The notes under the pieces were generated by a model. It had not been told where the DNA came from, searched no databases, and saw only the letters and a list, made by a program, of their open reading frames with translations. DNA of 64,000 bases from a virus. Lineage: Duplodnaviria > Caudoviricetes. Shown piece after piece: positions 1 to 17,041 of the stretch (position 1 is its first letter; every line of letters starts with the position of its first letter). The position numbers and the translations under genes are program-made. The stretch lies in IMG/VR virus record IMGVR_UViG_3300028888_000049. One strand, written 5' to 3'.

Positions 1-978
1 AACTTATTTAAACAAATTATGAGTATAGGATCAGAAAACGATCTTGGTCTAGAACTTAATAAACTTACAGCTGATGAATTCTTATCTCTTGTTGGTAATA
101 CATATGATACTTCTAATATGATAAAAACAGGAATAGCTTCTTGGGATGCAGGTTTAGGTGGAGGTTTTGTGAAAGACAACATACACTTGATTTGCGCAGC
201 TCCTGGAGGTGGAAAATCGCGTATGATGGCTTACTTAACACGAGTTGCATTAGAAAATATGAAAAAAGTTATATTTATTACACTCGAGTTAACTGAAACA
301 GAAACTATGGCAAATATTCAAAGTGCTATTACTGGTATGACTATGTATGATATGTTAAAACCTGAAAATAGAGCTGAATTTGAAGAAAAGACTGCAATGT
401 TTCAGAATACATTTGCTTCAGACTGTTTTGTTAAATTTTATAAACCATCGACTGTAACTGCTGATACTATTCAAAATTACATCTATAAAGTCATACAATT
501 TAAGAAAGAAAAAGAAGGTGTAGATTGGAAACCTGATGTTATTTTCTTAGACTATCTTGATAAATTACTACCAACACAGAAAGTTAAAGGTAATATTTAC
601 GAAGATATCGGTGGTGTAGCTGATGACTGTAAAAACCTCGCTATCACTTTTAGTTGCCCTGTTATTTCAGGATCACAATTAGGTAGAATCTCTTGGAATC
701 TTAATGGAGATGAGGTCATAAGTATGGCAAATATAAGTGAAAGTGCTAGAAAGGCTCACTTAGCTCATTCAATAACAACAATCAACGTTAATCCTGGCGA
801 AAAAGAACTTGGTAAAGCACGCTTATTCATGGCTAAATCTCGTAATGGACAACCTGGAAAGACTATTTTCATAGAACAGAATCTTGGCAAATGTTTAATG
901 TATGAAGTCGATCCTTGGGATCCGAAGACATTACAAGGTACTACTATTTATACCATTAAAGGAGCAAATCAGCAATAA
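1..978 (+). CDS. dnaB: Replicative DnaB/T4 gp41-like helicase (5'-truncated by window edge)
   Basis: Walker A AAPGGGKS, FITLE motif, Walker B DVIFLDYLD, SQLGR and KSRNG motifs; frame open from base 1. Confidence 0.88.
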   Translation, partial: NLFKQIMSIGSENDLGLELNKLTADEFLSLVGNTYDTSNMIKTGIASWDAGLGGGFVKDNIHLICAAPGGGKSRMMAYLTRVALENMKKVIFITLELTETETMANIQSAITGMTMYDMLKPENRAEFEEKTAMFQNTFASDCFVKFYKPSTVTADTIQNYIYKVIQFKKEKEGVDWKPDVIFLDYLDKLLPTQKVKGNIYEDIGGVADDCKNLAITFSCPVISGSQLGRISWNLNGDEVISMANISESARKAHLAHSITTINVNPGEKELGKARLFMAKSRNGQPGKTIFIEQNLGKCLMYEVDPWDPKTLQGTTIYTIKGANQQ

Positions 979-980
979 AA

Positions 981-1838
981 ATGGTTAAGTATAAGCTAAA
1001 AGAATTTACTTGTAGAATATGTGGAAAGAAATTTAAAGCGCGTTTTTCACATAATATGACTTGTTCCATTAAATGTAAAAGTAGAGCACGTAAATTAGAT
1101 TCTTATCCACCTACTGGAATTAGAAAGTGTGATTATTGTGGAAAAGAGTATTACTATATTCATGGAATGCCTAACTGGAATAAAAATGGAGCCTATAATA
1201 AAAGAGGATCTTTTGAATCTAGTAAATATTGTTGTTATGAATGTGGTAAAGCCGTTTCTAGAAATAAAAGTAAACAATCTAAATATGATAAGTATGGAGA
1301 TCCAAATTATAATAATCTAGAAAAATACAAAGAAACATGTCAAATCAAGTATAATACAGATAATACATTAAAAGTACCTGAAATAAAGGCTAGAAGAAAT
1401 GCTACTAATTTAAAAAATTTAGGAGTTGAATATCCATTACAAAATGAAGAAATATATAAGAAAACTTTAAAAAATAATAAAACGCATATTACAGAGACTA
1501 AAATATTTAATCTTATAAAAGAAATATATCCAGATGTAATAAGAGAATATAAATCTGATAAATATCCATGGTTCTGTGATTTTTATATTCCGTCTTTAGA
1601 TCTTTATATTGAATTTCAGGGACATTGGTCTCATGGTTTAAAACCTTATAATCCAAATGATCCAAATGACAAATTACAATTAGAGAAGTGGATTGAGTGT
1701 GAATATAAAAAATCTATAAAAATATGGACAGTTATTGATCCACTCAAGCGCGAAACAGCTAAAAAGAATAATATAACACTATTAGAATTTTTCACGATGC
1801 GTGAATTTAATGAATGGTATGCTAAACAAAAACCATAG
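981..1838 (+). CDS. Putative homing endonuclease: N-terminal CxxC zinc fingers, KYG-type repeats, C-terminal PD-(D/E)xK/Vsr-like nuclease
   Basis: CRIC...CSIKC, CDYC...CCYEC; DFYIPSLDLYIEFQGHWSH; free-standing next to helicase. Confidence 0.72.
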   Translation: MVKYKLKEFTCRICGKKFKARFSHNMTCSIKCKSRARKLDSYPPTGIRKCDYCGKEYYYIHGMPNWNKNGAYNKRGSFESSKYCCYECGKAVSRNKSKQSKYDKYGDPNYNNLEKYKETCQIKYNTDNTLKVPEIKARRNATNLKNLGVEYPLQNEEIYKKTLKNNKTHITETKIFNLIKEIYPDVIREYKSDKYPWFCDFYIPSLDLYIEFQGHWSHGLKPYNPNDPNDKLQLEKWIECEYKKSIKIWTVIDPLKRETAKKNNITLLEFFTMREFNEWYAKQKP

Positions 1839-1855
1839 ATTTTTATAAAGATAAA

Positions 1856-1883
1856 GGGTAGGTCTATTGTTGGATCTACCCTA
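1856..1883 (+). terminator. Intrinsic terminator-like hairpin
   Basis: agggtaggtc-N8-gatctaccct downstream of endonuclease stop. Confidence 0.6.
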
Positions 1884-2066
1884 TTATTATAGTTCTTAAG
1901 AAGTCGTTCTCTGGGTACTATATCTTCACCAATAATTTTACTGAGACATCGTTCGCAATAGGTGACTATAATGTGTTTTTACCTTTATTTATAGAACTAC
2001 TGTAAAAATTGCTTTACATTAATTATTTTGAAAGTTATATTATATATTATTTGAAAAGGATTATAT

Positions 2067-2438
2067 ATGATAGATAAAGTTAAATTACAACAGCTGTTAA
2101 TTGAAGGTAAAACGCTTGATGCATTAAGATTATATGCAGGTGGTGATCATATTAAAAGCAATATGATATTTAAAACACTATATAAAATTGTAAATTTATT
2201 AAATACGCATCTTGGCGAGTTTTTGTATGTGTATCACATTAGTGATAAAGAACTAAGAAAGTTTATAAATGAAAATAAACACTATTTTAGAAATGATAAT
2301 CAACAGATTATTATAGCAGAAAATACAATCTGTATTCCTAGAAATTCAGAATTTTATTTCTTGTTAAAAGCTTATAATTTCGATATAGCAACTGTTGTAC
2401 ATGCCTATAAAGATAAACAAAATGAGTTTGAAGAATAA
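2067..2438 (+). CDS. Hypothetical protein (weak KIYG-like helices)
   Basis: AAAGGA RBS, TTTACA promoter at 2013; DALRLYAG and FYFLLKAYN. Confidence 0.6.
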   Translation: MIDKVKLQQLLIEGKTLDALRLYAGGDHIKSNMIFKTLYKIVNLLNTHLGEFLYVYHISDKELRKFINENKHYFRNDNQQIIIAENTICIPRNSEFYFLLKAYNFDIATVVHAYKDKQNEFEE

Positions 2439-2868
2439 TTTAAAAATTTTAAGAGTTAAAGCAATGATGCCAATAACTATAATGTATACAAATGATAATA
2501 CCTATATTCAAGACTGTATAAAAGAACATAAAGCCATAATCTATTATATTATAGATCATTATAGTAAAGATACTTTTATGTCTTATGATGATTTATTTTA
2601 TATTATTGTTAATTTTAAAAATTATGTAGCTAAAAATAGAGGATATGATAGTTTTTATTTAAATTTTTTATGTTTAGATGAAGATATTATTGATAAGAAA
2701 GATGTTTATTTCGAAGAATATCAAGAGTATTTATCTCCTGCTACTATTGGAGCATTAGCTTTATGTATTGAAAGATATAAGTTTTATAAAAAATGCACAC
2801 TTCCTCTTTATTTTTTAATAAAATTGTTTTACAAATGTAAAAAAGCTATTTATAAAGGTAATAAATAA
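2395..2868 (+). CDS. Hypothetical protein
   Basis: 157 aa ORF overlapping neighbours; start probably 2422. Confidence 0.55.
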   Translation: MYMPIKINKMSLKNNLKILRVKAMMPITIMYTNDNTYIQDCIKEHKAIIYYIIDHYSKDTFMSYDDLFYIIVNFKNYVAKNRGYDSFYLNFLCLDEDIIDKKDVYFEEYQEYLSPATIGALALCIERYKFYKKCTLPLYFLIKLFYKCKKAIYKGNK

Positions 2869-2948
2869 TGCATTGGATAATTGAACTTGTAATGGATATT
2901 ATTGCTGATATTATAGCCAATTTATTCACTCAAAGGAAAAAGAAATGA
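2868..2948 (+). CDS. 26-aa amphipathic peptide MHWIIELVMDIIADIIANLFTQRKKK
   Basis: Below ORF-track cutoff; TAATG overlap upstream, ATGA overlap downstream, AAAGGT RBS. Confidence 0.6.
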   Translation: MHWIIELVMDIIADIIANLFTQRKKK

Positions 2949-3271
2949 TATGGTTTACTAATTGGAAGAAAAAGTATCAAGATTTAGTAGATAGACAGAT
3001 TGCTACTTTAGATTTAATTGAAGATTATCTATATGAAGCCAAATTACAACCATGCGAAATTAAGAAACTTTGTAAAATATATCTTACGTTAAGTATAGAA
3101 GACGCAAAGCTTATGATACAATTACATAAAGATTCGTTGAATAAAAATTTAAATTCTGATACACCAAATTATATTAAAAGATATAGAGGTACACAACTCT
3201 GTAAAAAAAGAAATGTATATGTACCAATTCTTGAAAAAGAACTTAAGAAATTAGAAAAAGGAAAAAAGTAA
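2945..3271 (+). CDS. Hypothetical protein
   Basis: AAAGGA RBS, abuts guaC. Confidence 0.6.
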   Translation: MIWFTNWKKKYQDLVDRQIATLDLIEDYLYEAKLQPCEIKKLCKIYLTLSIEDAKLMIQLHKDSLNKNLNSDTPNYIKRYRGTQLCKKRNVYVPILEKELKKLEKGKK

Positions 3272-4411
3272 ATGCATATTATAAATGATATTCAATTAGA
3301 TTATTGTGATGTATTAATTGCAGCTCAAACTACAACAGTTAATCATAGAGGAGATGTCAATATCAAAAGACATTTTAAAAATTTATTAGATTTCGATTGT
3401 TGTCCAATTATGAATGCTAATATGACTCAAACAGGTACATTTGAAGTTGCTGAAAAATTAATTGAAAATGGTATGATTGGTTGTATTCATAAATTTTATA
3501 CAGGTGAACAAATTAAAAAATTTTTAGATTCTGGTAAAGTTGGATCACTTGGTACAAACCGATTTTTTATTACTATTGGTTTACGTAATCAAGATGAAGA
3601 ATTGATGAAGTTAAAGTATTCAGGTTTAGATAAATATTTTTGGTCCATTATGATCGATGTACCGAATGCTTATATTCCTGCAGTTGAAGATTTAGTTAAA
3701 CGTGTACGTAATGAATTTCCTGATAAAATTATTGCTGTTGGTAATGTTTGTACTGGAGATAGAACACAAGAATTAATCAAAGCTGGTGCGACATTTATAA
3801 AGCTAAATGTGGGTCCATCAAAAGTTTGTCGCACAAGATTTGAAACTGGATGTGGTCGTCCTGCTCTTTCTACTGTTATTGAGTGTGCAAATGCAGCTCA
3901 TCAAGTTGGTGGATTAGTTATTGCTGATGGTGGATTTAATGAAGTTGGTGATTTCGCTAAAGCATTTGTAGCGGGAGCTGATGTTTGTATGTCTGGATGT
4001 TTCTTTGCTGGATGTGATGAAGCAGCAGGTAATATAATTAAAAAAGTTTATAAAACAAATGAAGTAGAAGTTATTACATGTAATAAAAATAATGAAAATG
4101 TTAATCCTTTAGATTACGATTATGATGTTTGTGATATAGTCGAAACAGCCCCAGTATATGAAATCAAGAAATTTAAAGAGTATTATGGCATGAGTTCTTT
4201 CAGAGCACAACAAGAGAATTATGGTCAAGTAACAAAAACTGGTACTTCAGAAGGTGTTGAAAGTAAATTAATTCCGTATACAGGACCTGTTATTGATACT
4301 ATAAATAAGATTAAAGGCGGATTAAGAAGTACTGGTAGTTATATTGGTGCTAAAAATATTAAACATTTTAGTCGTCAAGGTATATTTTATAGAACAAATA
4401 GGGTACAATAG
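3272..4411 (+). CDS. guaC: GMP reductase (IMPDH/GMPR family)
   Basis: N-term MHIINDIQLDYCDVLI, PIMNANM, catalytic loop GPSKVCRTR, IADGG, YYGMSS, SEG, GGLRSTGSYIGA. Confidence 0.9.
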   Translation: MHIINDIQLDYCDVLIAAQTTTVNHRGDVNIKRHFKNLLDFDCCPIMNANMTQTGTFEVAEKLIENGMIGCIHKFYTGEQIKKFLDSGKVGSLGTNRFFITIGLRNQDEELMKLKYSGLDKYFWSIMIDVPNAYIPAVEDLVKRVRNEFPDKIIAVGNVCTGDRTQELIKAGATFIKLNVGPSKVCRTRFETGCGRPALSTVIECANAAHQVGGLVIADGGFNEVGDFAKAFVAGADVCMSGCFFAGCDEAAGNIIKKVYKTNEVEVITCNKNNENVNPLDYDYDVCDIVETAPVYEIKKFKEYYGMSSFRAQQENYGQVTKTGTSEGVESKLIPYTGPVIDTINKIKGGLRSTGSYIGAKNIKHFSRQGIFYRTNRVQ

Positions 4412-4421
4412 TGAGGTCAGT

Positions 4422-4565
4422 ATGTCTATAGAAAAATTAGAAATGATTTTAAGAACTATTTTTATGTGTGTTTGTATTATGTCTTTTGCATATTGTCAAG
4501 CAAAAGTTGAAAGTACAAAAAATAAAACTGTTATTGTAGAAGATTGTAAAAATATTGAAAGGTAA
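4422..4565 (+). CDS. Small membrane/secreted protein
   Basis: GAGGT RBS; hydrophobic stretch TIFMCVCIMSFAYC. Confidence 0.45.
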   Translation: MSIEKLEMILRTIFMCVCIMSFAYCQAKVESTKNKTVIVEDCKNIER

Positions 4566-4569
4566 AATA

Positions 4570-4941
4570 ATGAATAAACAAGAACAAAATAGAACGATTC
4601 ATAGAGTTATTAGTGTATTTGGTGCTAAAAATCAAAAAATGCAAGCTATTGAAGAACTCATTGAGCTTCAAAAAGAAGTTTTTGAAAATGTACATCGTGA
4701 AACTAATAACAGACAGAATATTCTTGAAGAAGTAACTGATGTTGAAATTATGTTAGCACAGTTAAAAGAAATTTATGGTTTTGACGAGAAACAACTTGAA
4801 GATATGAAAGATTATAAATTATCTAGATTAAATCGTACTATTGATAAGTATTTAAGATCTCAACAAGAAGATCAAAATGTAGAATCTGATAATAATGAGA
4901 TTCATATCTTACGTAAAATTTCTAATGAAGGAAAAGAATAA
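4570..4941 (+). CDS. MazG-like nucleotide pyrophosphohydrolase
   Basis: QAIEELIEL...ILEEVTDVEIMLAQL acidic helical motifs. Confidence 0.7.
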   Translation: MNKQEQNRTIHRVISVFGAKNQKMQAIEELIELQKEVFENVHRETNNRQNILEEVTDVEIMLAQLKEIYGFDEKQLEDMKDYKLSRLNRTIDKYLRSQQEDQNVESDNNEIHILRKISNEGKE

Positions 4942-4944
4942 AAA

Positions 4945-5187
4945 ATGATAGAAGAACGGTGTGTGTTTTTAGAAAATGGATTTGTAGGTGATAATGAATG
5001 GATTTCTGTAGATAATAAAGAAAATCCTAAAATTACTGCTGTCAATTGGCTAAGAACACACCCAGAATTCTATTCACCAATTCGATTAGATGAATCTAGA
5101 ATTTTAGCTGTTGTAGTACGTACACCAAATGACAAAGAATATTTATATCAAATAGAAGTTACTGCTCAATTTAAAATTGTTGGTTAA
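4945..5187 (+). CDS. Hypothetical protein
   Basis: 80 aa, in operon. Confidence 0.55.
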   Translation: MIEERCVFLENGFVGDNEWISVDNKENPKITAVNWLRTHPEFYSPIRLDESRILAVVVRTPNDKEYLYQIEVTAQFKIVG

Positions 5188-5231
5188 ACAAGTTCTAATA
5201 GTTAAGTTAATACTACTATTAGGCAGAATTT

Positions 5232-5717
5232 ATGAGACTCTATACAGATGCTAGTACTAGAGGTAAAATTTCTGGAATAGCATATGTCGCAACGACAAGT
5301 AAAAATGTAGAACTTTATAAAGCTGGTGTTACGATAGATCAACCGGATAATAATACTGCTGAGCTTTTAGCTATTCTCTATGCTATAGATGATACACAAC
5401 CATTACTTCAAGAAAATGAACATACAACTATTTTAACTGATTCTACATATGCAATAAATGCAATTAGAACAGGTAAATGTAGAGAAAATGAAAAGCCTCT
5501 TGTTCATAAAATTCAAGATATGATGACTTATGGTAAGTATGCATTGTGGCATGTTAAAGGACATTGTCAAGACGGCACTGTCCTTTCTTATTTTAATAAA
5601 AGAGCTGATAAAATGTCTAAAGTAGTTAGAAGATTAGAAGAAAAGAGATTAGAAACAGAAAAGAAAAAGAAAAAATTCTTATCTGTATTAAAGAATCAAA
5701 CACAATTGGACCGTTAA
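5232..5717 (+). CDS. rnhA: Ribonuclease HI
   Basis: LYTDAS, NNTAELLAI, ILTDSTY, WHVKGH, NKRADKMS catalytic motifs. Confidence 0.9.
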   Translation: MRLYTDASTRGKISGIAYVATTSKNVELYKAGVTIDQPDNNTAELLAILYAIDDTQPLLQENEHTTILTDSTYAINAIRTGKCRENEKPLVHKIQDMMTYGKYALWHVKGHCQDGTVLSYFNKRADKMSKVVRRLEEKRLETEKKKKKFLSVLKNQTQLDR

Positions 5718-5801
5718 TTTTTAGCTTTACATCTGAAATAATGATGTTATAATGAATAAGTTCTAAATAAGATAATGTTTCTCTATAGGGGATTGTGATC
5801 A

Positions 5802-6104
5802 ATGATAGATAAAAATATATTAACTAAAGAGATAATTCAAATAGTAGCTGAAATTGCTGGAATGAATAAGAATAATATAACTCTTGATAGCAATTTAAAA
5901 AATGATTTAGGACTTGATAGTCTTGATACGATAGATTTGATTATGGATTTAGAAAATAAATATAATATATCTATATATGATGATAATGCTATAGATCAAA
6001 CATTTACTGTAAAGGATGTTATTGATTTAATTATAATGGAATATGAGGAAACTGAAAATGTCGAAAAGAAAAGAAACAATAAAAATAAAAAGTCAAAAAC
6101 CTAG
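5802..6104 (+). CDS. acpP: Acyl carrier protein with basic C-terminal tail
   Basis: DLGLDSLDTIDLIMDLENKYNISI phosphopantetheine motif; TVKDVID. Confidence 0.88.
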   Translation: MIDKNILTKEIIQIVAEIAGMNKNNITLDSNLKNDLGLDSLDTIDLIMDLENKYNISIYDDNAIDQTFTVKDVIDLIIMEYEETENVEKKRNNKNKKSKT

Positions 6105-6243
6105 AAATTTTGAATTAATAGAATTACAAATTAAAGGTTTAATGAGAACAAGAGTTATTAGAAATAAAAAGAAAGATGTTAAAAAATTTAATTGGAAAAA
6201 AGATTGTGCGGATTATTTAAATTTTATACTTTATAGAGCTTAA
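6058..6243 (+). CDS. ArfA-like alternative ribosome rescue factor (putative)
   Basis: 61 aa, basic; KPRN...GLMRTRVIRNKKK...WKK resembles ArfA LFRQRVEKNKKG; hydrophobic tail; stop inside long hairpin. Confidence 0.55.
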   Translation: MSKRKETIKIKSQKPRNFELIELQIKGLMRTRVIRNKKKDVKKFNWKKDCADYLNFILYRA

Positions 6244-6259
6244 ACAATCCGCATTTTTT
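6207..6259 (+). terminator. 22-bp hairpin spanning the ArfA-like stop codon, followed by T-run
   Basis: tgcggattatttaaattttata / tatagagcttaaacaatccgca (2 mismatches, 2 G-T). Confidence 0.7.
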
Positions 6260-6306
6260 GTTCTAATATTAGTGTGTATTTTAATTATTATAAGGGACTT
6301 AATAAA

Positions 6307-6675
6307 ATGAATTACAGACATTTCACAGGTTTTAATGAAAATTCTAAATTTGAAAAACTATCAGGTGATATTCAAAGAGCTATAGAAACACAGACTAATA
6401 TAGACTTAGAAGCTAGAAAAATATCTCAGTATTTTAGAAAAACTTTTTCAGATGAAGATGTACAAGTAACATTTTTTAATAAAACTTGTGAAGAATATGC
6501 TAATAAAGATGAAAACGAATTAAAGAAATTAGTTATAAAAGAATCTAAAGCTTTGTATTTTCATCAATTAACAAAAGATAGATTTGAATATTATGACAAT
6601 TTAGCAAAATTAGAAGCTAAAAAATTAGATAATATGATTAAATATAGAGTAAACGATCATTTTAAGGAATATTAA
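6307..6675 (+). CDS. Hypothetical protein
   Basis: AAGGGA RBS; TGTTCT motif upstream. Confidence 0.55.
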   Translation: MNYRHFTGFNENSKFEKLSGDIQRAIETQTNIDLEARKISQYFRKTFSDEDVQVTFFNKTCEEYANKDENELKKLVIKESKALYFHQLTKDRFEYYDNLAKLEAKKLDNMIKYRVNDHFKEY

Positions 6676-6729
6676 TTGTGATTGACTTAACGAAATTACA
6701 AGAACTGTCAAAAAGAAGGAAATTAGCAG

Positions 6730-7335
6730 ATGAGAAAAATCTCAAATAAAGAATGTGAATCGTTGTTAAATACTTTATTATATCAATCACAAACTAATAA
6801 TTTAGCAGCATTTACAGATAAAATAGGAAAATATTCATTTTATAATACAATAACTAATGAACATATTTTCTATAAAACTTATGAGGAAGCTTTAAATAAA
6901 ATAATAAAACTAAAATGTTTTAAAGAATTACTGCAGAAAGACTTTTTATTACAATTAATAATATTATCTAAAAAATTAAAAATAGATCTTTTTTCAAGAT
7001 ATTTTTATTATGATGATTTATCAAAAGAATTAACAAATTTGCCAGTACAAATTTGGATTTGTAATCTTGGTAAAAAATATTTGCCTAGAATTTTTATTCA
7101 AAACAATTCGAATACATTGGAATATTTAAATAATATATTAGAAGTAAGTCTTTATCCAAAAATAGAAATAAATGATCGCTTTAATTTTGGAAATAAATTA
7201 GCAAAAGATACAGAAGCTACGCTCTTAAATTGGATTAATAATCATAAAAAGGATCTAATAAATGCAACAAAATCTGAAAAAGATTATGTACTATTCGTTA
7301 GATCATTAGAAAAGGAGAAAAATAATGGTAAATAA
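6730..7335 (+). CDS. Hypothetical protein (TxLPVxIWI...PRI motif seen in phage proteins)
   Basis: 201 aa; AAGGA RBS. Confidence 0.55.
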   Translation: MRKISNKECESLLNTLLYQSQTNNLAAFTDKIGKYSFYNTITNEHIFYKTYEEALNKIIKLKCFKELLQKDFLLQLIILSKKLKIDLFSRYFYYDDLSKELTNLPVQIWICNLGKKYLPRIFIQNNSNTLEYLNNILEVSLYPKIEINDRFNFGNKLAKDTEATLLNWINNHKKDLINATKSEKDYVLFVRSLEKEKNNGK

Positions 7336-7891
7336 GAAAGAGTTAGAAGCTCAAACTCTTGAAGAACAAACTATTAAATCTTTAAAGAAAATTGCATATA
7401 GATTTGCATGGAATTTTGATAGGTCTTTTGCAAAGTTATTATTACCTGTCTTAAAAGCATATGTTTATGATGCTTCTAAATCTATTGACTTATCTCATTT
7501 AACAATGCCTTCTTTTATTAAAAAAAGATATTATGATGCTTCATTATCTTCTAAACTTGATAAAAAGATTCATGATCATTATCTTAAAAAATCTCTACAT
7601 TATTTAAATAGTTGTATTGATGTATTGCAAGATATATTAGATGAAGATACAGAAACTTGGAAAGAAAAATGGAAATATAAGGAATACTTTCCTATAGAAT
7701 ATGAAAAAATTCCAGTAAAAGTAAACAATAAAACTGTGTTTAATATTAAAATTAAACCAGAATTTGAAAAGAATAGAAAAAAGAATACAAAAATTTTAAG
7801 TTATAATAATTTTCGCTTTACAAAATGTTTAAGATGGCGTAATAAATATTTATATTGGTTAGTTAAAAATCTTAAGCATTTGTGGTGGTAA
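7325..7891 (+). CDS. Hypothetical protein
   Basis: AAGGAG RBS; 188 aa. Confidence 0.6.
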   Translation: MVNKKELEAQTLEEQTIKSLKKIAYRFAWNFDRSFAKLLLPVLKAYVYDASKSIDLSHLTMPSFIKKRYYDASLSSKLDKKIHDHYLKKSLHYLNSCIDVLQDILDEDTETWKEKWKYKEYFPIEYEKIPVKVNNKTVFNIKIKPEFEKNRKKNTKILSYNNFRFTKCLRWRNKYLYWLVKNLKHLWW

Positions 7892-7893
7892 AG

Positions 7894-8112
7894 ATGAGAT
7901 TATATTGTATTGGAATAATTATCGCTGTTGTTGTTACTTGTGTTGGAACAGGAATTTTAGGTTCTAAGATAAGTGATGTTATTCAAGAGAATCGAGTTAT
8001 AGATCAATTACATGCTCAAGGCTATAAGTTAGTAAGAGCAAATAAAGCAGATCTTCCTTCTCTTGGATATTCAAAATGTGTTGAAGTAAATTATACTTAT
8101 TATTGCAAATAG
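7894..8112 (+). CDS. Small membrane-anchored protein
   Basis: N-terminal TM helix LYCIGIIIAVVVTCVGTGILG. Confidence 0.55.
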   Translation: MRLYCIGIIIAVVVTCVGTGILGSKISDVIQENRVIDQLHAQGYKLVRANKADLPSLGYSKCVEVNYTYYCK

Positions 8113-8121
8113 GAGATTAGA

Positions 8122-8382
8122 ATGAAAAAATTATTTATTTTAGCTTGTTTTTTAATTACTGCATGTACTAGTGCTCCAGAAGTTAAACCAGTATATCAAG
8201 CACAAACAAGACCTGTATATAATACAAATTGTTGTACATCATCGCATACTGTTCGTAAGCCTGTGGAAATTATCTATGAAGATACTACTTATACTACAGT
8301 TTATGAACCAAAGACATATACCTCAACTAAAAGAGTTTCAATGCCTTATAACGATTGTACAATTAAATCTTTATGTCGTTAA
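8122..8382 (+). CDS. Lipoprotein
   Basis: MKK + hydrophobic core + lipobox LITAC; AGGAG RBS. Confidence 0.7.
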   Translation: MKKLFILACFLITACTSAPEVKPVYQAQTRPVYNTNCCTSSHTVRKPVEIIYEDTTYTTVYEPKTYTSTKRVSMPYNDCTIKSLCR

Positions 8383-8401
8383 GCTAAACGATGTAATAAA
8401 G

Positions 8402-8638
8402 TAAAGTATTTATTATGGCGGAAGTATAGACGCTAGATGGAGAGTAGAGAGAAGCTCGGGTGCCGGATTATTTGAGCTTCGAAGATGAACGATAAAACAG
8501 AGAATGCACGCGATGTGTGAACTCATCCATGGACTATTCAGCTAATAGTGTTTTGCATTCCAAAACAAAGACTACTCGTTCTATGGGGTGATTTTTAACC
8601 AATAATTTTAAATCTGGCCATAGATAATAAATACTTTA
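8402..8638 (+). ncRNA. Structured tRNA-like ncRNA candidate with expanded arms
   Basis: Perfect 14-bp terminal stem, D-arm-like TGGCGGAAGTATAGACGC, several nested hairpins, GC-richer than flanks, no ORF. Confidence 0.6.
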
Positions 8639-8674
8639 TATTTCAGTTCTAATAATGTTGAGAAGGGTGATACG

Positions 8675-9097
8675 TTGAAAAGAATTGATAAAGGCATGAA
8701 TGAAAAATACTACATCCATCTCGAACCACTTTCATCTGATAGTTATATGTATGGTGTATTATCAATAGTCGATAATACTCCTTTTGATTATAGTGTCAGT
8801 GAACTTGTTGGTAAACGAGAAGAAGTTTTAGATACAGTTGCTAAAAAGATAATAGCAACTAATAGTACATTATTAGATAGAAACATTTTTAATTTAAAAT
8901 TTTCAGAACTAACTGATACAAAATATATGATTCATCATATCCAAAAAGATGATTTCTATAAAGACTATAGAGTTAACATAACTCCAGCTGTATTTTTATC
9001 CGATATGAATAAAGTAAGTGCAATAAAAGTAATGGTTCAGAAAAATATCCTGAACCGAAGACTTTTTGAAAATTGGAAAAATAATCAGAAAGATTAA
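8675..9097 (+). CDS. Hypothetical protein
   Basis: AAGGG RBS, AGTTCT motif upstream. Confidence 0.55.
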   Translation: MKRIDKGMNEKYYIHLEPLSSDSYMYGVLSIVDNTPFDYSVSELVGKREEVLDTVAKKIIATNSTLLDRNIFNLKFSELTDTKYMIHHIQKDDFYKDYRVNITPAVFLSDMNKVSAIKVMVQKNILNRRLFENWKNNQKD

Positions 9098-9312
9098 TAT
9101 AAAGCGTTTGCTAACTTATTTAATCTATCAAGATCTGGTAATTCATCGTTTTTAACATAATATGCAACAATATAATCATTAACAGATTTAAGTACGCGCT
9201 CATTATAACGAGCTTTCTTAAGTTCTTCAGCTGCAGTTTCTTCTGCAGATTTTTCTTTAATATCTTCAATCTGTTCTTCTGTAATAGGTGTTGTTTCAAT
9301 ATTTTCAGTCAT
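9094..9312 (-). CDS. Hypothetical acidic protein
   Basis: GAGGA RBS. Confidence 0.6.
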   Translation of the reverse strand: MTENIETTPITEEQIEDIKEKSAEETAAEELKKARYNERVLKSVNDYIVAYYVKNDELPDLDRLNKLANALY

Positions 9313-9325
9313 TTAATATTTTCCT

Positions 9326-9676
9326 CTACTTAAATTTAAATGCTAATGGATCAGAATCATAACGAATTCTATTCCATGTTATTATGTTTTTCACTTTATT
9401 TAAATCTGAAGTGCTTATCTTAAACCACTCTCCAACAGAATCACTTTTAAAAGATTTTAGATCTCTATGTACAAGTTTTTCTATTTTTAAAAGATGATTT
9501 CTTTCGCATTCAAATTCTTCAGTGAATAATAATGTAAGTTTATTTTGATTTCCTGTTTGAAGTTGTTTTAATCTTCTTTTAGGATTTTTAGATATACCTA
9601 CTTTAATATATCCCTTATCATTTGAGATAATATACATATATTGATAGTTTTTAATATCTTCATCTATAAACTTCAT
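9326..9676 (-). CDS. GIY-YIG superfamily T5orf172/MUG113-like protein
   Basis: YMYII...YIKVGISKNPKRRLKQLQTGN...IEKLVH...GEWF. Confidence 0.8.
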   Translation of the reverse strand: MKFIDEDIKNYQYMYIISNDKGYIKVGISKNPKRRLKQLQTGNQNKLTLLFTEEFECERNHLLKIEKLVHRDLKSFKSDSVGEWFKISTSDLNKVKNIITWNRIRYDSDPLAFKFK

Positions 9677-9723
9677 AGCAATAAGAACTATTTAGTTTAT
9701 AGACTTTTAGAAAAAAAATATGA

Positions 9724-10071
9724 TTATATGGAAACTTTTAAAAGAAATTTTAACTTATCTATATTTTTAATTGGAAGTGTAATATTTATTCTAAAGCCAG
9801 TATCGTTTGTTAAGCTTCCTCTACTAAATCCATATACGAAATTACGTGGATATTCTGTAATACTAATATCTTTTATAATACCATCTTCTATTAATTCATT
9901 AAGAAAATCCATATCATGAGATGTATATTGTTGTACACAACAACTTTCTAATATATAAGTAATATCTGAATTATTTTTTGTGGAAAAGTATTCAGAGATT
10001 ATATATTCTAGAATATTTTTAAAAAAGAACTTTTTTAATAAAATCTTTAACTCATCCAAATCAATCATCAT
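9724..10071 (-). CDS. KIYG-helix family protein
   Basis: C-term IKNIDKLKFLLKV. Confidence 0.6.
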   Translation of the reverse strand: MMIDLDELKILLKKFFFKNILEYIISEYFSTKNNSDITYILESCCVQQYTSHDMDFLNELIEDGIIKDISITEYPRNFVYGFSRGSLTNDTGFRINITLPIKNIDKLKFLLKVSI

Positions 10072-10472
10072 AAATCCTTAATTAAAGAATCAATATCAGT
10101 ATTTAATTTTCCGTATAATCTTAAGTAAAATATTATTAGATCTAAATTTGCATTATCTTGAAAAGATATATCAATATGTAGTATCTTTTTAGTTTTATCA
10201 ATCCAAGTATATTTTGTTTCAATTAGAATATGATCTTCAAAATATTCATATATCTTTTTTAATTTTTTAATTAAGATATGTTGAACAGCTGGTACTCCAG
10301 TCCAAATTTTAGCATTTCCATTAATAGAATCTATTTGACTTTTAAAAATTTCATCATATCTAAAAAAGCGTGAACTAGGTTTTCTAAGAGCAGAATCTAT
10401 ATCATCTTTTGTTCCTAGTATATTTATAATAAAGCTTCTTAAAATTAAAATCTTTTTATCAGAATTTGTCAT
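10068..10472 (-). CDS. KIYG-helix family protein
   Basis: NLDLIIFYLRLYG; GGAGGA RBS. Confidence 0.65.
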   Translation of the reverse strand: MTNSDKKILILRSFIINILGTKDDIDSALRKPSSRFFRYDEIFKSQIDSINGNAKIWTGVPAVQHILIKKLKKIYEYFEDHILIETKYTWIDKTKKILHIDISFQDNANLDLIIFYLRLYGKLNTDIDSLIKDL

Positions 10473-10588
10473 AAATCCTCCACAATTTTTATATATAATA
10501 TAACATTAAATATCCTTTTGTAAAACCAATTTTCGGCTTTATTTTTAAAGTTCTATATAATAAATTCAAATCTTGAAAGAGAGTTATA

Positions 10589-10789
10589 ATGAAAGTATTA
10601 AAACAATTTGTAGATAGTAATTCGATACATAATTATGTAATTTTTAAAATATCAGAATGTACAGAAAAAGCTTTAGAAGAAAAATGTAATCTTATATTAA
10701 AACAACAATCTTTAAATTGGAAACGATTAAGACTAGAATATTCAGAAAGTCTTAAAGTATTTACAATGATTTATTATTACGAAAAATAA
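10589..10789 (+). CDS. Hypothetical protein
   Basis: 66 aa, AGTTCT motif upstream. Confidence 0.45.
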   Translation: MKVLKQFVDSNSIHNYVIFKISECTEKALEEKCNLILKQQSLNWKRLRLEYSESLKVFTMIYYYEK

Positions 10790-10813
10790 GGGACCTAATT
10801 AAAGATCCCTTAT
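10786..10813. terminator. Bidirectional terminator between convergent genes
   Basis: ataaggga...tcccttat inverted repeat. Confidence 0.6.
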
Positions 10814-10837
10814 ATTTTTATTAAATGATATTACGAA

Positions 10838-11203
10838 TTAGAAATCGTAACGAATAGCTGCGTTAACAACAATCATTCCATCTTTGCGTTGGAAAGCTTT
10901 TGTCTTTGAATAACGAATAGCAACCGGTTCACTTAATTCAACATCTTCATGTCCAGCAAAACCAGGAACTTTCATTTCACCAGCGATTTCTGCAATATCA
11001 GCATATGTCAAAGGATTTGCAGGTAATTCATCAGCATTATGATTGTTATAAGACAATGTTACATAATGAGATTCAGCAGCACCAGAAGCAGAACCAGATT
11101 CTTCAGAAACTACTTCATAAACAGATGCACAGATTACCATATAATTTTCTTTGTCTTCTACTTTTTTAATTTCGCCAGAAGCAATCAATTTACTCTTCAT
11201 CAT
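10838..11203 (-). CDS. Hypothetical protein, possibly abundant/virion protein
   Basis: AAGGAA RBS 7 nt before ATG at 11203; GC-richer codon usage like capsid gene. Confidence 0.6.
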   Translation of the reverse strand: MMKSKLIASGEIKKVEDKENYMVICASVYEVVSEESGSASGAAESHYVTLSYNNHNADELPANPLTYADIAEIAGEMKVPGFAGHEDVELSEPVAIRYSKTKAFQRKDGMIVVNAAIRYDF

Positions 11204-11382
11204 CGTTGTATTCCTTATATTTAAAACTACGCCTTGTGGAAAATAATTAAAGTGGCGCGTTACTTTAATCATAATTATAGAACATTAAAAAATTATATAA
11301 AATTGACATAATTAAATTACTGTTTTATTTGGTTAGTTCTACTATAATAACAGAATAGTTTTTTATTTAGGACGTATTAATC

Positions 11383-11985
11383 ATGTCAAGACTAAATACA
11401 TTTTGTGGACGCTTTGTTTGGTGTATTCCTGCTTTAATTGTTGCTATTGGTATATTTTATTTTATTAATTTATTTGATAGAATTTATTCCAGAGATTTAA
11501 ATAGACAGCTTGATGAGAAATATCAATTAGTAAATCTTATAGAAGCTCTTCATAGTAACGAAAGCATGGCTAAAATTGTAGAAATAATGGATGGATTTCA
11601 GGATACGTATATTTATGTATTAGAAGTTGAAGATAGTAAAGTAATCGAAGATTTTCATACAGTAAATTGTCCGTATCGTTTTTCAAAACACCCATTTGAA
11701 ATGGCTGAAATAAAAAACAAAATTAAGAAAAATAAGCGTGGATCTTTTGCAACTATTGTTAAAAATACTGGAAAAATATATTGGGAATACCGTTGGATCA
11801 ATATTTCAGATAAAAACTATCTTCTATTAATGGGAATTTCTAATTATCCCACGGATGTATTGGATAAAGAACTTCAAATTTCAATCGGAACACTTTTATT
11901 AATTACAGCTTTATTAAACTGGGTTCTTGTTGGATATGCTAAATACTTGAGAGCTGGTTGTTGTAAAATAAAAAGGAAAAAATAA
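11383..11985 (+). CDS. Two-TM membrane protein with periplasmic Cache-like domain
   Basis: TM1 near N-term, TM2 near C-term; IKKNKRGSF...KIYWEYRWI...YLLLMGI pattern. Confidence 0.6.
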   Translation: MSRLNTFCGRFVWCIPALIVAIGIFYFINLFDRIYSRDLNRQLDEKYQLVNLIEALHSNESMAKIVEIMDGFQDTYIYVLEVEDSKVIEDFHTVNCPYRFSKHPFEMAEIKNKIKKNKRGSFATIVKNTGKIYWEYRWINISDKNYLLLMGISNYPTDVLDKELQISIGTLLLITALLNWVLVGYAKYLRAGCCKIKRKK

Positions 11986-11986
11986 C

Positions 11987-12304
11987 GTGAATACTCCAGA
12001 AAGTCATGAGCCAGAATACCTTACAATGTTTATGTGTTTTATTTTGGCATTGTTGGGTGGAACTGCTAGAGAACTATCTAAACAGGAAGAATGCTTCAAC
12101 TGGAGGCGTTTCTTGTCAAATATCTTTGTCTCTGGTTTTTGCGGACTTTTAATTGGATTATTTGCAACCGATTTTGAACATAAAAACTGGTTAATGTTTC
12201 TTGCTGGTGTTAGTGGTACAGCTGGTGTAGCTTTCTTAGATTTCTGTTGGGAAGTTCTGAAATCTGTATTGACTAAAGTAGCTGAAAAAGTAGATACTAA
12301 ATAA
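11987..12304 (+). CDS. Holin (LydA-like, three TM)
   Basis: ILALLGGTARELS, FLSNIFVSGFCGLLIG, FLAGVSGTAG; precedes spanins. Confidence 0.75.
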   Translation: MNTPESHEPEYLTMFMCFILALLGGTARELSKQEECFNWRRFLSNIFVSGFCGLLIGLFATDFEHKNWLMFLAGVSGTAGVAFLDFCWEVLKSVLTKVAEKVDTK

Positions 12305-12317
12305 AAAGGATCATACT

Positions 12318-12626
12318 ATGAAAAAAGGATATTGGATTACTTTAAGTATATTTTTAATTCTCACAATCATATTTGGTTTTATGTGGTATATAAATGCCTC
12401 CGAGAAGAATAAAGCTCGTGAGGAGCTAAAAAATGCACAAATAACGATAGATAATCTTACAACTGATAAAGAAAAGTTAGTTACATATATTACAGAAAGA
12501 GATAATGAAATTAAAAGATTACAATCTGAATATAAAGAAAAATTAAAAAATATTCCTAAAGATACTTGTGGAGATCAGAAACCGTCTAAAGAACTTTTAG
12601 AATTTTTTAGGAAGAATGTACAATGA
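12318..12626 (+). CDS. Inner-membrane spanin (Rz-like)
   Basis: N-terminal TM, coiled coil, C-terminal Cys (DTCGDQK). Confidence 0.7.
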   Translation: MKKGYWITLSIFLILTIIFGFMWYINASEKNKAREELKNAQITIDNLTTDKEKLVTYITERDNEIKRLQSEYKEKLKNIPKDTCGDQKPSKELLEFFRKNVQ

Positions 12627-12844
12627 AATATATACTTACTTTAATATTAGTTTTAATACTTTGTTCTTGTTCTGTTTGTAAAAATAACGTTATACAAACA
12701 AATCAATTCATCCAAACTAATTACGATTTTAATTGTCTTGATGATAATAAAACTCTTTCTGAAATAATTTTATGTTATCAAGAACAAGATAAAGCTGAAA
12801 AATTACAAAATAATATTACCAATAAGCTTTTAAAAACAAAATAG
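12623..12844 (+). CDS. Outer-membrane spanin lipoprotein (Rz1-like)
   Basis: Lipobox LILCSC; ATGA overlap with i-spanin. Confidence 0.65.
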   Translation: MKYILTLILVLILCSCSVCKNNVIQTNQFIQTNYDFNCLDDNKTLSEIILCYQEQDKAEKLQNNITNKLLKTK

Positions 12845-12903
12845 AATTTTCGACTTTACAATTACCTTCAAATATTATACATTATAATTATAGGAGGTAA
12901 ATA

Positions 12904-13179
12904 ATGTCTGATTTATTAGATTCTTTAAAACAATCTATATCTTGCTATTTTGGTAGGACTGTATTTGTAACAACTACAGACGATAATTGTATTTTAATAG
13001 CAATTCCTTTACATATCCCTAAGATAGAGTTCGTTTTTTCAGAAATATTAAGAAATTGTAATATTCCATTAGTTAGATATTCTCATAAAGGTGGTTTTCA
13101 TTTTTATAAAATCTCTAATGAATATCAAAATGAATTAGCTAGATTACCATTTTTTCTAAAGGTTTATAAAAATGTATGA
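12904..13179 (+). CDS. KIYG-helix family protein
   Basis: ILRNCNIP...ELARLPFFLKVY. Confidence 0.65.
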   Translation: MSDLLDSLKQSISCYFGRTVFVTTTDDNCILIAIPLHIPKIEFVFSEILRNCNIPLVRYSHKGGFHFYKISNEYQNELARLPFFLKVYKNV

Positions 13180-13555
13180 TCCAGAATTTGCGCAACTATG
13201 TAACAAAACATTAAATTCGTATTATTCTTGCAATAGTATACTTTTATTAGGTAGTTTGCCTAACACTCCTATGACAGATTATTATCAAATTTTATTTACA
13301 GCACCGTATCATGAGAACAATTGGAGATATTATCATTTTAAAAAAGTATTAGATGATAATGATATTCCATATGATGAACCCTGTAATGTTAAACCAATAA
13401 AAAGTAAAAATGATAAGAATGAAGATGTTTGGGAACAAAATGACTCTTATGTTATTGTTATTCATAATAAATATAAAACTAAATTAGAAAGGATATTTTT
13501 TCTATTTAAAATACAAGGTAAATGTAGTGTATTACGAGAAAGTGATGAGTCTTAA
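13172..13555 (+). CDS. KIYG-helix family protein
   Basis: VLDDNDIPY...LERIFFLFKIQG. Confidence 0.65.
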   Translation: MYDPEFAQLCNKTLNSYYSCNSILLLGSLPNTPMTDYYQILFTAPYHENNWRYYHFKKVLDDNDIPYDEPCNVKPIKSKNDKNEDVWEQNDSYVIVIHNKYKTKLERIFFLFKIQGKCSVLRESDES

Positions 13556-13556
13556 T

Positions 13557-13961
13557 ATGACAGATGAAGAATATAATAAAAGAAAACAAGAAAATTTCAA
13601 AAAGCATCATGACCAACGAGAAATGTATAAAAAGCAATTATTAGTATTATTGCAAATAAGTGGTTATGATGTTAATACTATTTATTCTCCAGTTCACCTT
13701 ATTGAAGCATTAGATAATATTGGATTCGTAAAAATAAAATCCACATATCATATGAATAAACAAAATAAAAGAGAATTTGAATTTCCATTACGATTTTCCA
13801 TGAATAATTATGAATTTGAAATGGACGTTGATATTAAACTTAAAAAACCAAAAGCTAACTTTTCAATAAATGGTGAAAGACAATGGTTAGATATTTGGTA
13901 TAAGAGACTTTATGAATGTCTTAAAGGTAATGAAATTAAAACGGACTTAGAAGAATGGTAG
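13557..13961 (+). CDS. Hypothetical protein with N-proximal KIYG-like helix
   Basis: KQLLVLLQISGY. Confidence 0.55.
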   Translation: MTDEEYNKRKQENFKKHHDQREMYKKQLLVLLQISGYDVNTIYSPVHLIEALDNIGFVKIKSTYHMNKQNKREFEFPLRFSMNNYEFEMDVDIKLKKPKANFSINGERQWLDIWYKRLYECLKGNEIKTDLEEW

Positions 13962-14236
13962 ATTACAAACAAGCTTTGACACTCCATTGCAGAATTCAAG
14001 GGTATACTCGATTAAACTATAGAAAATGTCTAAAAGATATAGCACAAACATATCCACATTTAGCAACTTATAAAAGAATAGGAAAAGAACACTATATATT
14101 CACCTTTAAAGACCAAACTTTAACTATTTGGATTCATTATATGCTAAGTGGACGTACTGATTTTAAATTAAACGATAAAGATATAACTCGCGAAGAAATG
14201 TATCAGTTTTTATACTCAGTACTACAAGAATTATAA
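13955..14236 (+). CDS. Hypothetical protein with N-terminal KIYG-like helix
   Basis: KQALTLHCRIQGY; overall similarity to preceding ORF. Confidence 0.55.
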   Translation: MVDYKQALTLHCRIQGYTRLNYRKCLKDIAQTYPHLATYKRIGKEHYIFTFKDQTLTIWIHYMLSGRTDFKLNDKDITREEMYQFLYSVLQEL

Positions 14237-14260
14237 AAAGTATATACTCAGTTTCTACTT

Positions 14261-14533
14261 TCATGAATATATTTTTGTTAAGAGTTTAATTCTATCAAGA
14301 TCTTTTTCTGTGAAGATAATTCGACTCCCGAAAGGTGAACAAGTACAAAACATCTGATCCTTTAATGTAAAACCCATACTCCATAATTCATTTATTATAT
14401 CATCAAAAAACCTTACAGTAACAATTCCTAAATAAATTCTACTATTATCGTTTATATAATATGATTGCTCATTAACAGTCATGAAATATGAGTTATTTAA
14501 TAATTCAAAACTAATATTCATCTTTATAAACAC
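14261..14533 (-). CDS. KIYG-helix family protein
   Basis: FTEKDLDRIKLLTKIYS. Confidence 0.65.
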   Translation of the reverse strand: MFIKMNISFELLNNSYFMTVNEQSYYINDNSRIYLGIVTVRFFDDIINELWSMGFTLKDQMFCTCSPFGSRIIFTEKDLDRIKLLTKIYS

Positions 14534-14846: not shown

Positions 14847-14860
14847 TAGTTTTACTCCTA

Positions 14861-15172: not shown

Positions 15173-15188
15173 CTTTATTTTCCTTTTA

Positions 15189-17040: not shown

Positions 17041-17041
17041 A

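What the first reader, a model, noticed from the sequence alone, without database searches (positions are those of the whole stretch)
6058..6259. Phage ArfA-like ribosome-rescue factor with its stop codon buried in an RNase III-sized hairpin
Seen: a 61-aa basic protein with RN...LMRTRVIRNKKK followed by a hydrophobic tail (DYLNFILYRA). The last codons and the TAA form a 22-bp stem (6207-6253). Established: E. coli arfA (LFRQRVEKNKKG) has a 3' coding hairpin cut by RNase III; this gives a non-stop mRNA whose product accumulates only when tmRNA is saturated. Inference: the phage carries both the factor and the tmRNA-sensing circuit, which could counter mRNA- or tRNA-cleaving defences.
Basis: partly seen in the sequence, partly recalled or inferred. 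Interest (0 to 1): 0.7.

Follow-up and report, generated by a model that had tools for sequence, protein, structure and literature searches.

The report
Phage ArfA-like rescue gene with hairpin
A giant gut phage carries a tiny, very basic protein gene that distantly resembles the bacterial back-up ribosome-rescue factor ArfA and, like arfA, ends in a long RNA hairpin kept in all 15 copies examined, so it probably frees stalled ribosomes during infection, though this is untested.

Summary
Window 6058-6243 (+) encodes a 61-aa basic protein. A 21-pair hairpin (6206-6254) encloses its TAA stop (6241-6243) and is followed by a T-run.

The gene belongs to an unannotated family of at least 265 protein clusters. 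These sit on contigs of about 180-280 kb from gut and rumen metagenomes, usually inside tRNA gene arrays.

The link to ArfA is real but weak.
- The Pfam ArfA model does not match, and the ArfA hallmark KGKGSY is absent.
- An unbiased search of the family profile against all PDB sequences puts ArfA in the top six places (E 0.12-0.26; next hit 6.6).
- Profile-profile comparison aligns 30 columns (P 2.7e-4). None of 600 column shuffles came close.
- The ArfA residues that hold RF2 (L19, L24, F25) fall on conserved hydrophobic residues.

All 15 loci examined keep a 12-28-pair hairpin that starts just after the conserved core, with unrelated stem sequences. At least five of these have no T-run. In four, the reading frame runs through the hairpin or terminator to a distant stop, as in arfA and brfA.

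In this window the stop lies before the T-run. A non-stop mRNA therefore needs cleavage, which is not shown.

Verdict: probable new phage variant of ArfA-type rescue factors (about 0.5). Earlier notes of this scan report similar phage genes on other DNA. I found no paper describing them.

The parts
5726..5753 (+). Promoter-like site, TTTACA-16 nt-TATAAT with a TG extension. It probably drives the two-gene unit of the ACP gene plus the small gene.
   Evidence: Best promoter match in 1-20000, 11 of 12 positions. This is a consensus match only.
5802..6104 (+). Upstream gene for an acyl-carrier-like protein. It overlaps the small gene by 47 nt.
   Evidence: Pfam PP-binding, E 4.9e-12.
6045..6049 (+). 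Shine-Dalgarno GAGGA, 8 nt before the ATG.
   Evidence: Read from the sequence. Relatives also have a Shine-Dalgarno before the aligned start.
6058..6243 (+). ArfA-like small basic protein gene (61 aa, P0001).
   Evidence: The family appears.
6124..6174 (+). Codons 23-39 (L23 to K39), the stretch that aligns to ArfA 19-35. It covers the RF2-binding hydrophobic patch, the mid-region and NKK.
   Evidence: hhalign and PDB hmmsearch. Structural roles are taken from PMC5378476.
6206..6254 (+). A 21-pair hairpin covering codons 50-61, the stop and 11 nt beyond.
   Evidence: Equivalent hairpins occur in 14 related loci.
6241..6243 (+). TAA stop codon, paired in the 3' arm of the hairpin.
6254..6262 (+). 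T-run (TTTTTTGTT) after the hairpin. Together they look like an intrinsic terminator.
   Evidence: The simple terminator scan did not list it, which I attribute to the scan's hairpin criteria (loop of 3-8, stem without internal mismatches); I did not check this.

Best explanation
The gene encodes a phage version of an ArfA-type alternative ribosome-rescue factor. The conserved front part (about residues 11-34) would sit in the empty A site and hold release factor RF2 through a hydrophobic patch (L23, L28, M29). The lysine-rich stretch (about 35-49) would fill the vacant mRNA tunnel of a ribosome stalled at the 3' end of a broken mRNA. RF2 then releases the peptide without a stop codon.

The conserved long hairpin at the end of the reading frame defines the mRNA 3' end. 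In some relatives, transcription termination or cleavage there must give an mRNA without a stop codon. In this window a double-strand-specific cut (of the RNase III type) inside the 21-pair stem would be needed.

Such a non-stop message yields stable peptide only when host trans-translation (tmRNA) is saturated. That gives the same self-limiting control as arfA and brfA. The factor would keep ribosomes free while host or phage nucleases cut mRNAs and tRNAs.

Shown: the gene is real, the family exists, the ArfA likeness is weak but specific, the hairpin is conserved, and the family sits with tRNA genes. Inferred: ribosome and RF2 binding, cleavage, tmRNA control and the benefit to the phage.
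For: 1. The gene belongs to a real family.
- 265 clusters reach E <= 0.001. Most are 54-66 aa, and many lie on contigs of 180-280 kb.
- The first ~49 residues are conserved, and N36 and K38 are invariant.

2. The ArfA likeness is specific.
- hmmsearch of the family profile against 177,635 PDB sequences returns six ArfA constructs as the top six hits (E 0.12-0.26; next hit 6.6).
- hhalign against 30 diverse ArfA sequences gives P 2.7e-4 and Prob 41% over 30 columns, matching P0001 11-40 to ArfA 7-36. The best of 600 column shuffles scored 16.2 against 25.7 observed.
- Half of the real ArfA sequences score >= 8.4 bits against the family HMM, against 3 of 3000 shuffled decoys.
- The member P0141 scores P 3.6e-6 against an ArfA HMM.
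- The alignment puts conserved L23, L28 and M/F/Y29 on ArfA L19, L24 and F25, which bind RF2 Trp319 (PMC5378476).
- The basic stretch after NKK matches ArfA residues 31-48 in the mRNA tunnel.

3. The hairpin is conserved.
- All 15 loci have one, with 12-28 pairs, starting at codons 41-49. For the 12 tested, z ranges from -2.7 to -10.5, and 11 are at or below -4.8. The stem sequences are unrelated.
- L011 (RBS and ATG follow), L126, L125, L134, L010 and L128 have no T-run after it.
- In L123, L125, L127 and L134 the frame passes through the hairpin to a stop 5-75 nt later. In L127 the hairpin is a plain terminator inside the ORF.
- Residues after the hairpin are not conserved, as in ArfA.

4. 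The stems are about twice as long as the window's ordinary terminator stems of 5-14 pairs.

5. In 7 of 8 relatives scanned, the gene lies in or beside tRNA arrays. Ro60/TROVE and a CCA-adding enzyme are nearby.
Against: - The Pfam ArfA HMM and NCBIfam give no hit for P0001, and Pfam gives none for the nine members of A1.
- The near-invariant ArfA motif KGKGSY and the KH motif are absent.
- P0001 alone scores 2.3 bits against an ArfA HMM and is not the top frame in the window.
- hhalign probability is only 18-41%, depending on the alignments used.
- ArfA A18, which is critical, aligns to a variable column.
- In this window and 10 other loci the stop lies inside the hairpin and before any T-run. 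Uncut transcripts therefore end translation normally.
- No RNase III, release factor or tmRNA gene was found in a 98%-complete relative, so host enzymes must do the work.
- The host is unknown. ArfA is known only from Proteobacteria.
Confidence: 0.5

Rival explanations
1. This is an ordinary small basic RNA- or ribosome-binding phage protein of another function. The hairpin is only a terminator, or a protective 3' stem-loop and processing signal for a short mRNA embedded in tRNA precursor transcripts. The ArfA likeness would then be a short lysine-rich motif shared by chance or by convergence.
For: In this window the hairpin is followed by a T-run, and the stop precedes it. In the relatives, tRNA genes start 5-6 nt after the hairpin (L010, L128). 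RNase P processing would therefore leave the hairpin as a 3' cap. The Pfam ArfA model fails, KGKGSY is absent, and the matches are marginal (E 0.12 and Prob 18-41%).
Against: A protective or terminator hairpin has no need to start about 12 codons inside the ORF, yet it does so in 15 of 15 loci. In four loci the frame reads through it into unconserved sequence. ArfA, not some other basic protein, tops an unbiased PDB search, and shuffles do not reproduce the score.
Confidence: 0.33
2. The protein is an ArfA mimic used against the host. It would occupy the A site and mRNA tunnel, or sequester RF2, in order to block host rescue or termination (shut-off) rather than to rescue ribosomes.
For: It has the same ribosome- and RF2-directed features as ArfA but lacks the KGKGSY loop that ArfA places in the decoding centre. 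ArfA A18 is needed for RF2 activation (PMC5378476) and is not conserved here.
Against: The gene is embedded among tRNA genes and RNA-repair genes that support translation. The arfA-like 3' design suggests dosage kept low and conditional, which fits a rescue factor better than an inhibitor.
Confidence: 0.1
3. The ORF is not a gene. It would be a chance open frame overlapping the end of the ACP gene, next to a terminator.
For: It is short, AT-rich and overlaps 5802-6104 by 47 nt.
Against: There are 265 homologous clusters with a conserved core, a conserved start and a Shine-Dalgarno, found in different gene contexts.
Confidence: 0.02

Closest known systems
ArfA (YhdL), alternative ribosome-rescue factor A of gamma- and beta-proteobacteria (Pfam PF03889; PDB 5MDV, 5MGP, 5U4I, 5H5U, 7OJ0)
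   Same: Both are 55-75 aa. The mid-region L-[FMY]-[RK]-x-[RK]-V-x-x-N-K-K is in the same place, and the hydrophobic patch residues align. A basic stretch of tunnel length follows. A long hairpin sits in the 3' coding region. The tail after it is unconserved, hydrophobic and of variable length.
   Different: There is no KGKGSY motif and no KH motif. The family scores below the Pfam threshold. The hairpin usually contains the stop codon, whereas in E. coli the stop lies about 15 nt after the main stem. The gene is carried by jumbo phages, next to tRNA genes, and the host is probably not a proteobacterium. That host guess is an inference from strong Shine-Dalgarno sites and an extended -10 promoter.
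BrfA (YqkK) of Bacillus subtilis (PMC6881298; PDB 6SZS)
   Same: Both are small basic proteins. BrfA works through RF2. Its gene has an intrinsic terminator before the stop codon, which gives a non-stop mRNA controlled by tmRNA (PMC8012679). The relative L127 has exactly this layout.
   Different: No sequence match was found; 6SZS is not among the PDB hits at E <= 10. In the window the stop precedes the T-run.
ArfT of Francisella tularensis (PMC6299226)
   Same: It is a very small basic factor that recruits a release factor to non-stop ribosomes.
   Different: It is about 40 aa and works with RF1 or RF2. No similarity to it was tested or seen here, and no 3' hairpin control is described for it.

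Membership tests
ArfA (PF03889) | Matches the curated Pfam or NCBIfam model above its cut-off | tested here: not met
   No hit at E <= 10 for P0001 (Pfam, NCBIfam) or the nine members of A1 (Pfam). My own ArfA HMM gives P0001 2.3 bits and the best member, P0141, 13 bits.
ArfA (PF03889) | KGKGSY loop after the mid-region | tested here: not met
   KGKGS is present in all 30 diverse ArfA sequences (Y sometimes F). The phage family has NKKK[DE]xKKF[ND] instead.
ArfA (PF03889) | Hydrophobic patch (L19, L24, F25) and mid-region LFRQRV that bind RF2 and lie in the A site | tested here: met
   These residues align to conserved L23, L28 and M/F/Y29 plus R-x-[RK]-V. This is alignment evidence only; roles come from PMC5378476.
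ArfA (PF03889) | Basic stretch of about 18 residues able to fill the mRNA tunnel, kept in the truncated product | tested here: met
   Residues 35-49 hold 8 basic residues of 15, and the hairpin starts at codon 50. ArfA residues 31-48 lie in the tunnel, and ArfA is active when cut at N47.
ArfA (PF03889) | Hairpin or terminator inside the 3' coding region that yields a non-stop mRNA | tested here: inconclusive
   A hairpin is present and conserved in all 15 loci. In four loci the stop lies beyond it. In the window the stop is inside the hairpin and before the T-run, so cleavage would be required, and this was not tested.
ArfA (PF03889) | RF2-dependent peptide release on non-stop ribosomes; synthetic lethality with ssrA | not testable with these tools
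   This needs biochemistry and genetics.
BrfA | Sequence similarity to B. subtilis BrfA | tested here: not met
   There is no BrfA chain among the PDB hits at E <= 10.
BrfA | Rho-independent terminator upstream of the stop codon | tested here: not met
   In the window the stop is at 6241-6243 and the T-run at 6254-6262. The feature is met only in the relative L127.

The most novel reading that the evidence does not exclude
Gut jumbo phages carry, inside their tRNA arrays, their own ArfA-type ribosome-rescue factor. Its mRNA is made stop-less by a conserved hairpin, so the phage senses when host tmRNA is overwhelmed and frees ribosomes during RNA-cleaving defence or host mRNA decay. This would be the first ArfA-type rescue system in viruses and outside Proteobacteria. 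Its decoding-centre contact would differ from ArfA, because the KGKGSY loop is absent.
Probability: 0.4. Interest if true: 0.75.

Novelty: new variant of a known kind. Interest (0 to 1): 0.6.

Why it matters
Release-factor-dependent rescue factors (ArfA, BrfA, ArfT) are known only from a few bacterial lineages and are thought to be hard to find by sequence (PMC8012679). A phage-borne family with the same gene design would make ribosome rescue part of the phage translation toolkit, alongside tRNAs, the CCA-adding enzyme and Ro60. It would suggest a counter-measure to nucleases that cut mRNA or tRNA. It would also give a natural variant in which the RF2-holding part of ArfA is kept but the decoding-centre loop is replaced, which is useful for working out how RF2 is activated without a stop codon. 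My four literature searches found no paper describing phage ArfA-like genes.

Tried and rejected
- **Direct sequence searches.** BLASTP of P0001 against E. coli ArfA found no alignment; only the member P0009 aligns, with a pairwise E of 4e-4. phmmer of P0001 against the PDB found no ArfA. PHROGs gave only a meaningless E 0.78 hit.
- **Isolated phages.** No DNA or protein match was found in the phage collection.
- **E. coli-type ArfA in IMG/VR.** The pattern scan found none.
- **Complex prediction.** The family (residues 1-52) was folded with E. coli RF2 as a stand-in. The result was "no answer" (median score 0.03), which is neither for nor against binding.
- **Larger family alignment.** 135 sequences did not improve hhalign (Prob 21.5%, P 0.001).
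- **Host assignment through the capsid protein.** The best isolated relatives are only 35% identical (Xanthomonas and Pseudomonas phages), so this was not informative.
- **Phage-encoded helper genes.** RNase III, release factor and tmRNA were sought in the near-complete relative G402. None was found; the tmRNA hits were below threshold and probably tRNA-like.
- **Rfam.** No family reached its gathering score in the window.
- **The 72-aa form P0148.** It is not a stop-loss variant. It was called with TAG read as Q, and under table 11 it ends inside the hairpin.

Full report
**What is there**

Window 6058-6243 (+) is a 61-codon ORF. A GAGGA Shine-Dalgarno lies 8 nt upstream of the ATG. The protein is very basic, carries GLMRTRVIRNKKK in the middle, and ends in a hydrophobic tail.

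The last 12 codons, the TAA stop (6241-6243) and 11 nt beyond it form a 21-pair hairpin at 6206-6254. The hairpin has helices of 9, 5 and 7 pairs separated by two 1x1 mismatches. The stop codon pairs in the middle helix, and TTTTTTGTT follows.

The fold is far better than shuffles (z -5.2 and -4.8). In the same -45/+17 frame around the stop it reaches -18.3 kcal/mol, against -5.7 +/- 3.0 for 136 other putative genes of the window. Only one of those is lower, and its stop is unpaired.

The best promoter-like site in the first 20 kb (5726-5753) lies upstream of an acyl-carrier-like gene (5802-6104). That gene overlaps the small ORF by 47 nt. The two genes, ending at the hairpin, look like one transcription unit.

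The window belongs to a phage. It carries a T4-type major capsid gene. Earlier notes of this scan describe the genome as a 263-kb uncultured sheep-gut jumbo phage (I did not check this).

**The gene is real and belongs to a family**

- A first search found 8 relatives.
- An exhaustive profile search of 1.8 billion representatives found 20.
- A profile search of the 5.8-billion-sequence set found 265 clusters. Most are 54-66 aa, none has a name or a Pfam domain, and many lie on contigs of 180-280 kb.
- About the first 49 residues are conserved, and N36 and K38 are invariant. The consensus of the central region is G-L-x-R-x-K-V-I-P-N-K-K-K-x-x-K-K-F-N-x-K-K-E. Residues after that vary in sequence and length.
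- In 7 of 8 related loci scanned, the gene lies in or beside tRNA gene arrays. Ro60/TROVE and CCA-adding enzyme genes are close by.
- This window itself has no tRNA gene.

**Is it ArfA-like?**

Direct tests fail.
- The Pfam ArfA model and NCBIfam give nothing for P0001, and Pfam gives nothing for the nine members of A1.
- BLASTP and phmmer of P0001 find no ArfA.
- An ArfA HMM that I built from 30 diverse ArfA genes gives P0001 only 2.3 bits, which is not the best frame in the window.

At family level the picture changes.
- hmmsearch of the family profile against all 177,635 PDB sequences returns six ArfA constructs as the six best hits (E 0.12-0.26). The next hit is at E 6.6.
- hhalign against the diverse ArfA alignment gives P 2.7e-4 (Prob 41%) over 30 columns, matching P0001 11-40 to ArfA 7-36.
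- The best of 600 column-shuffled controls scored 16.2, against 25.7 observed.
- Half of the real ArfA sequences score at least 8.4 bits against the family HMM, against 3 of 3000 shuffled decoys.
- Other alignments give Prob 18-22% over the same region.
- Some members are much closer to ArfA than P0001 is. P0141 has KFRQRIVQNKKK and scores P 3.6e-6.

The alignment also makes structural sense.
- It puts conserved L23, L28 and M/F/Y29 on ArfA L19, L24 and F25. This is the hydrophobic patch that binds RF2 Trp319, Val198 and Phe217 (PMC5378476).
- The lysine-rich stretch falls on ArfA residues 31-48, which fill the mRNA tunnel. ArfA still works when cut at N47.

Three points count against membership.
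- The KGKGS(Y/F) loop, present in all 30 ArfA sequences, is missing.
- The KH motif is missing.
- ArfA A18 aligns to a variable column.

I therefore do not file the family as a member of Pfam ArfA. I call it a distant ArfA-like family. Whether the likeness reflects homology or convergence stays open.

**The hairpin**

I looked at 15 loci in all: the window, L001, L002, L005, L010, L011, L012, L123-L128, L133 and L134. Every one has a hairpin of 12-28 pairs beginning at codons 41-49, right after the conserved KK[ED].
- Twelve loci were tested against shuffles. Their z-scores run from -2.7 to -10.5, and eleven are at or below -4.8.
- The stem sequences are unrelated between subfamilies, so what is kept is the pairing, not the sequence.
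- The stems are about twice as long as the ordinary terminator-like stems in this window, which have 5-14 pairs. They are similar in size to the E. coli arfA hairpin.
- A T-run follows in the window, L001, L002, L005, L124 and L127.
- No T-run follows in several others. In L011 the next gene's RBS and ATG come directly. L126 is A-rich. In L010 and L128 a tRNA gene starts 5-6 nt later. L125 and L134 also lack one.
- In 11 loci the stop lies inside the hairpin.
- In L123, L125, L127 and L134 the frame runs through the hairpin to a stop 5-75 nt further on, through unconserved sequence.
- L127 has a plain terminator inside the ORF, which is the BrfA layout. L134 has a 24-pair hairpin in mid-ORF without a T-run, which is the E. 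coli arfA layout (PMC8012679).

This pattern is a conserved core, then a conserved hairpin, then a tail that does not matter. Natural ArfA genes show the same pattern.

**How it most likely works**

The peptide binds ribosomes stalled at an mRNA 3' end. Its basic stretch fills the empty tunnel and its front part recruits RF2, which releases the nascent chain.

The hairpin sets the message's 3' end. Where the stop lies beyond the hairpin, termination or cleavage must give a non-stop mRNA. Its product is tagged by tmRNA and destroyed unless trans-translation is saturated.

In this window the stop lies before the T-run, and a translating ribosome melts the stem before reaching it. An uncut transcript therefore gives the full 61-aa protein with its hydrophobic tail. 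The tmRNA-sensing circuit here needs a cut in the 21-pair stem, for which RNase III is the obvious candidate. No phage RNase III was found in a 98%-complete relative, so a host enzyme would have to do it. This step is inference.

One speculation is worth recording. The stop lies in the short middle helix between two 1x1 mismatches. Phage T7 RNase III sites with internal loops are cut on one strand only (from my own knowledge). A cut on the 3' arm at that point would remove the stop and leave a stabilising 3' hairpin.

**Rivals**

- The main rival (0.33) is a basic RNA- or ribosome-binding protein of another function. Its hairpin would be a terminator, or a protective 3' cap left after tRNA processing. 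This explains the T-run and the adjoining tRNAs. It does not explain why the hairpin always starts inside the ORF, why some frames read through it, or why ArfA tops an unbiased PDB search.
- A second rival (0.1) is an ArfA mimic that blocks host rescue rather than performing it.
- A chance ORF is excluded by the family's conservation.

**Novelty**

I found no paper describing phage ArfA-like genes. Notes of this scan report similar phage and bacterial genes on other DNA. Those are leads that agree with what I found independently here, not evidence.

The host is unknown. Strong Shine-Dalgarno sites and an extended -10 promoter suggest that it is not a Bacteroidota host. That is inference only.

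A complex prediction with E. coli RF2 gave no answer and is not used as evidence.

Noticed in passing
window 5802-6104 (+), 5232-5717 (+), 3272-4411 (+): The phage encodes an acyl-carrier-like protein (PP-binding, E 4.9e-12), an RNase H (E 2.7e-13) and an IMPDH/GMP-reductase-family enzyme (E 1.8e-55), lying just upstream of or overlapping the small gene. The role of a phage ACP is unclear.
   Followed up: no
L010 6208-6396; L128 481-557; L133 1076-1569; L002 7891-7977; L126 2138-2229: In relatives the small gene sits inside tRNA arrays. A tRNA gene starts 5-6 nt after the hairpin in L010 and L128. ARAGORN labels unusual anticodons there: tRNA-Ser(ACT) in L010 and L126, and tRNA-Ile(TAT) in L010 and L012.
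   Followed up: partly
L126 2746-4374; L002 13941-15254; L002 3197-4444; L005 3042-4292: Ro60/TROVE-domain genes and a CCA-adding (PolyA_pol) enzyme lie near the small gene in related phages. This suggests an RNA-repair and translation-maintenance module.
   Followed up: no
L133 1192-1410: A database gene call for a family member reads TAG as glutamine (with_TAG=Q). Under table 11 the gene ends at that TAG, inside the hairpin. This is either a gene-caller artefact or a hint of TAG recoding in that phage.
   Followed up: partly
L011 6082-6155: An outer helix pairs AAUCUC inside the small gene with GGAGAUU, the Shine-Dalgarno of the next gene. Translation of the small gene could therefore unmask the downstream start.
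   Followed up: no
L012 6125-6220: A GC-rich stem (GCCCC...GGGGC) encloses about 80 nt between the hairpin and what reads like the start of a tRNA gene at about 6221 that ARAGORN did not call. It may be a structured RNA of unknown kind.
   Followed up: no
window 30950-34500 (+); 54115-55437 (-); 57957-59918 (-); 60256-61815 (-): Other annotations: a MoxR-like AAA ATPase and, two genes downstream, a DUF2201 metallopeptidase/VWA protein (the 280-aa ORF between them has no Pfam hit); a PAPS-reductase/DUF3440 protein; a 653-aa protein with a weak GIY-YIG domain; and a T4 gp23-type major capsid protein.
   Followed up: no
L093-L122 (ArfA loci from Proteobacteria): Many natural ArfA ORFs end in ...AA (LMAA, QAA, LLAA). 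Many phage-family ORFs end in ...SA...RA or ...LK. These may be C-terminal degradation signals on the read-through forms.
   Followed up: no
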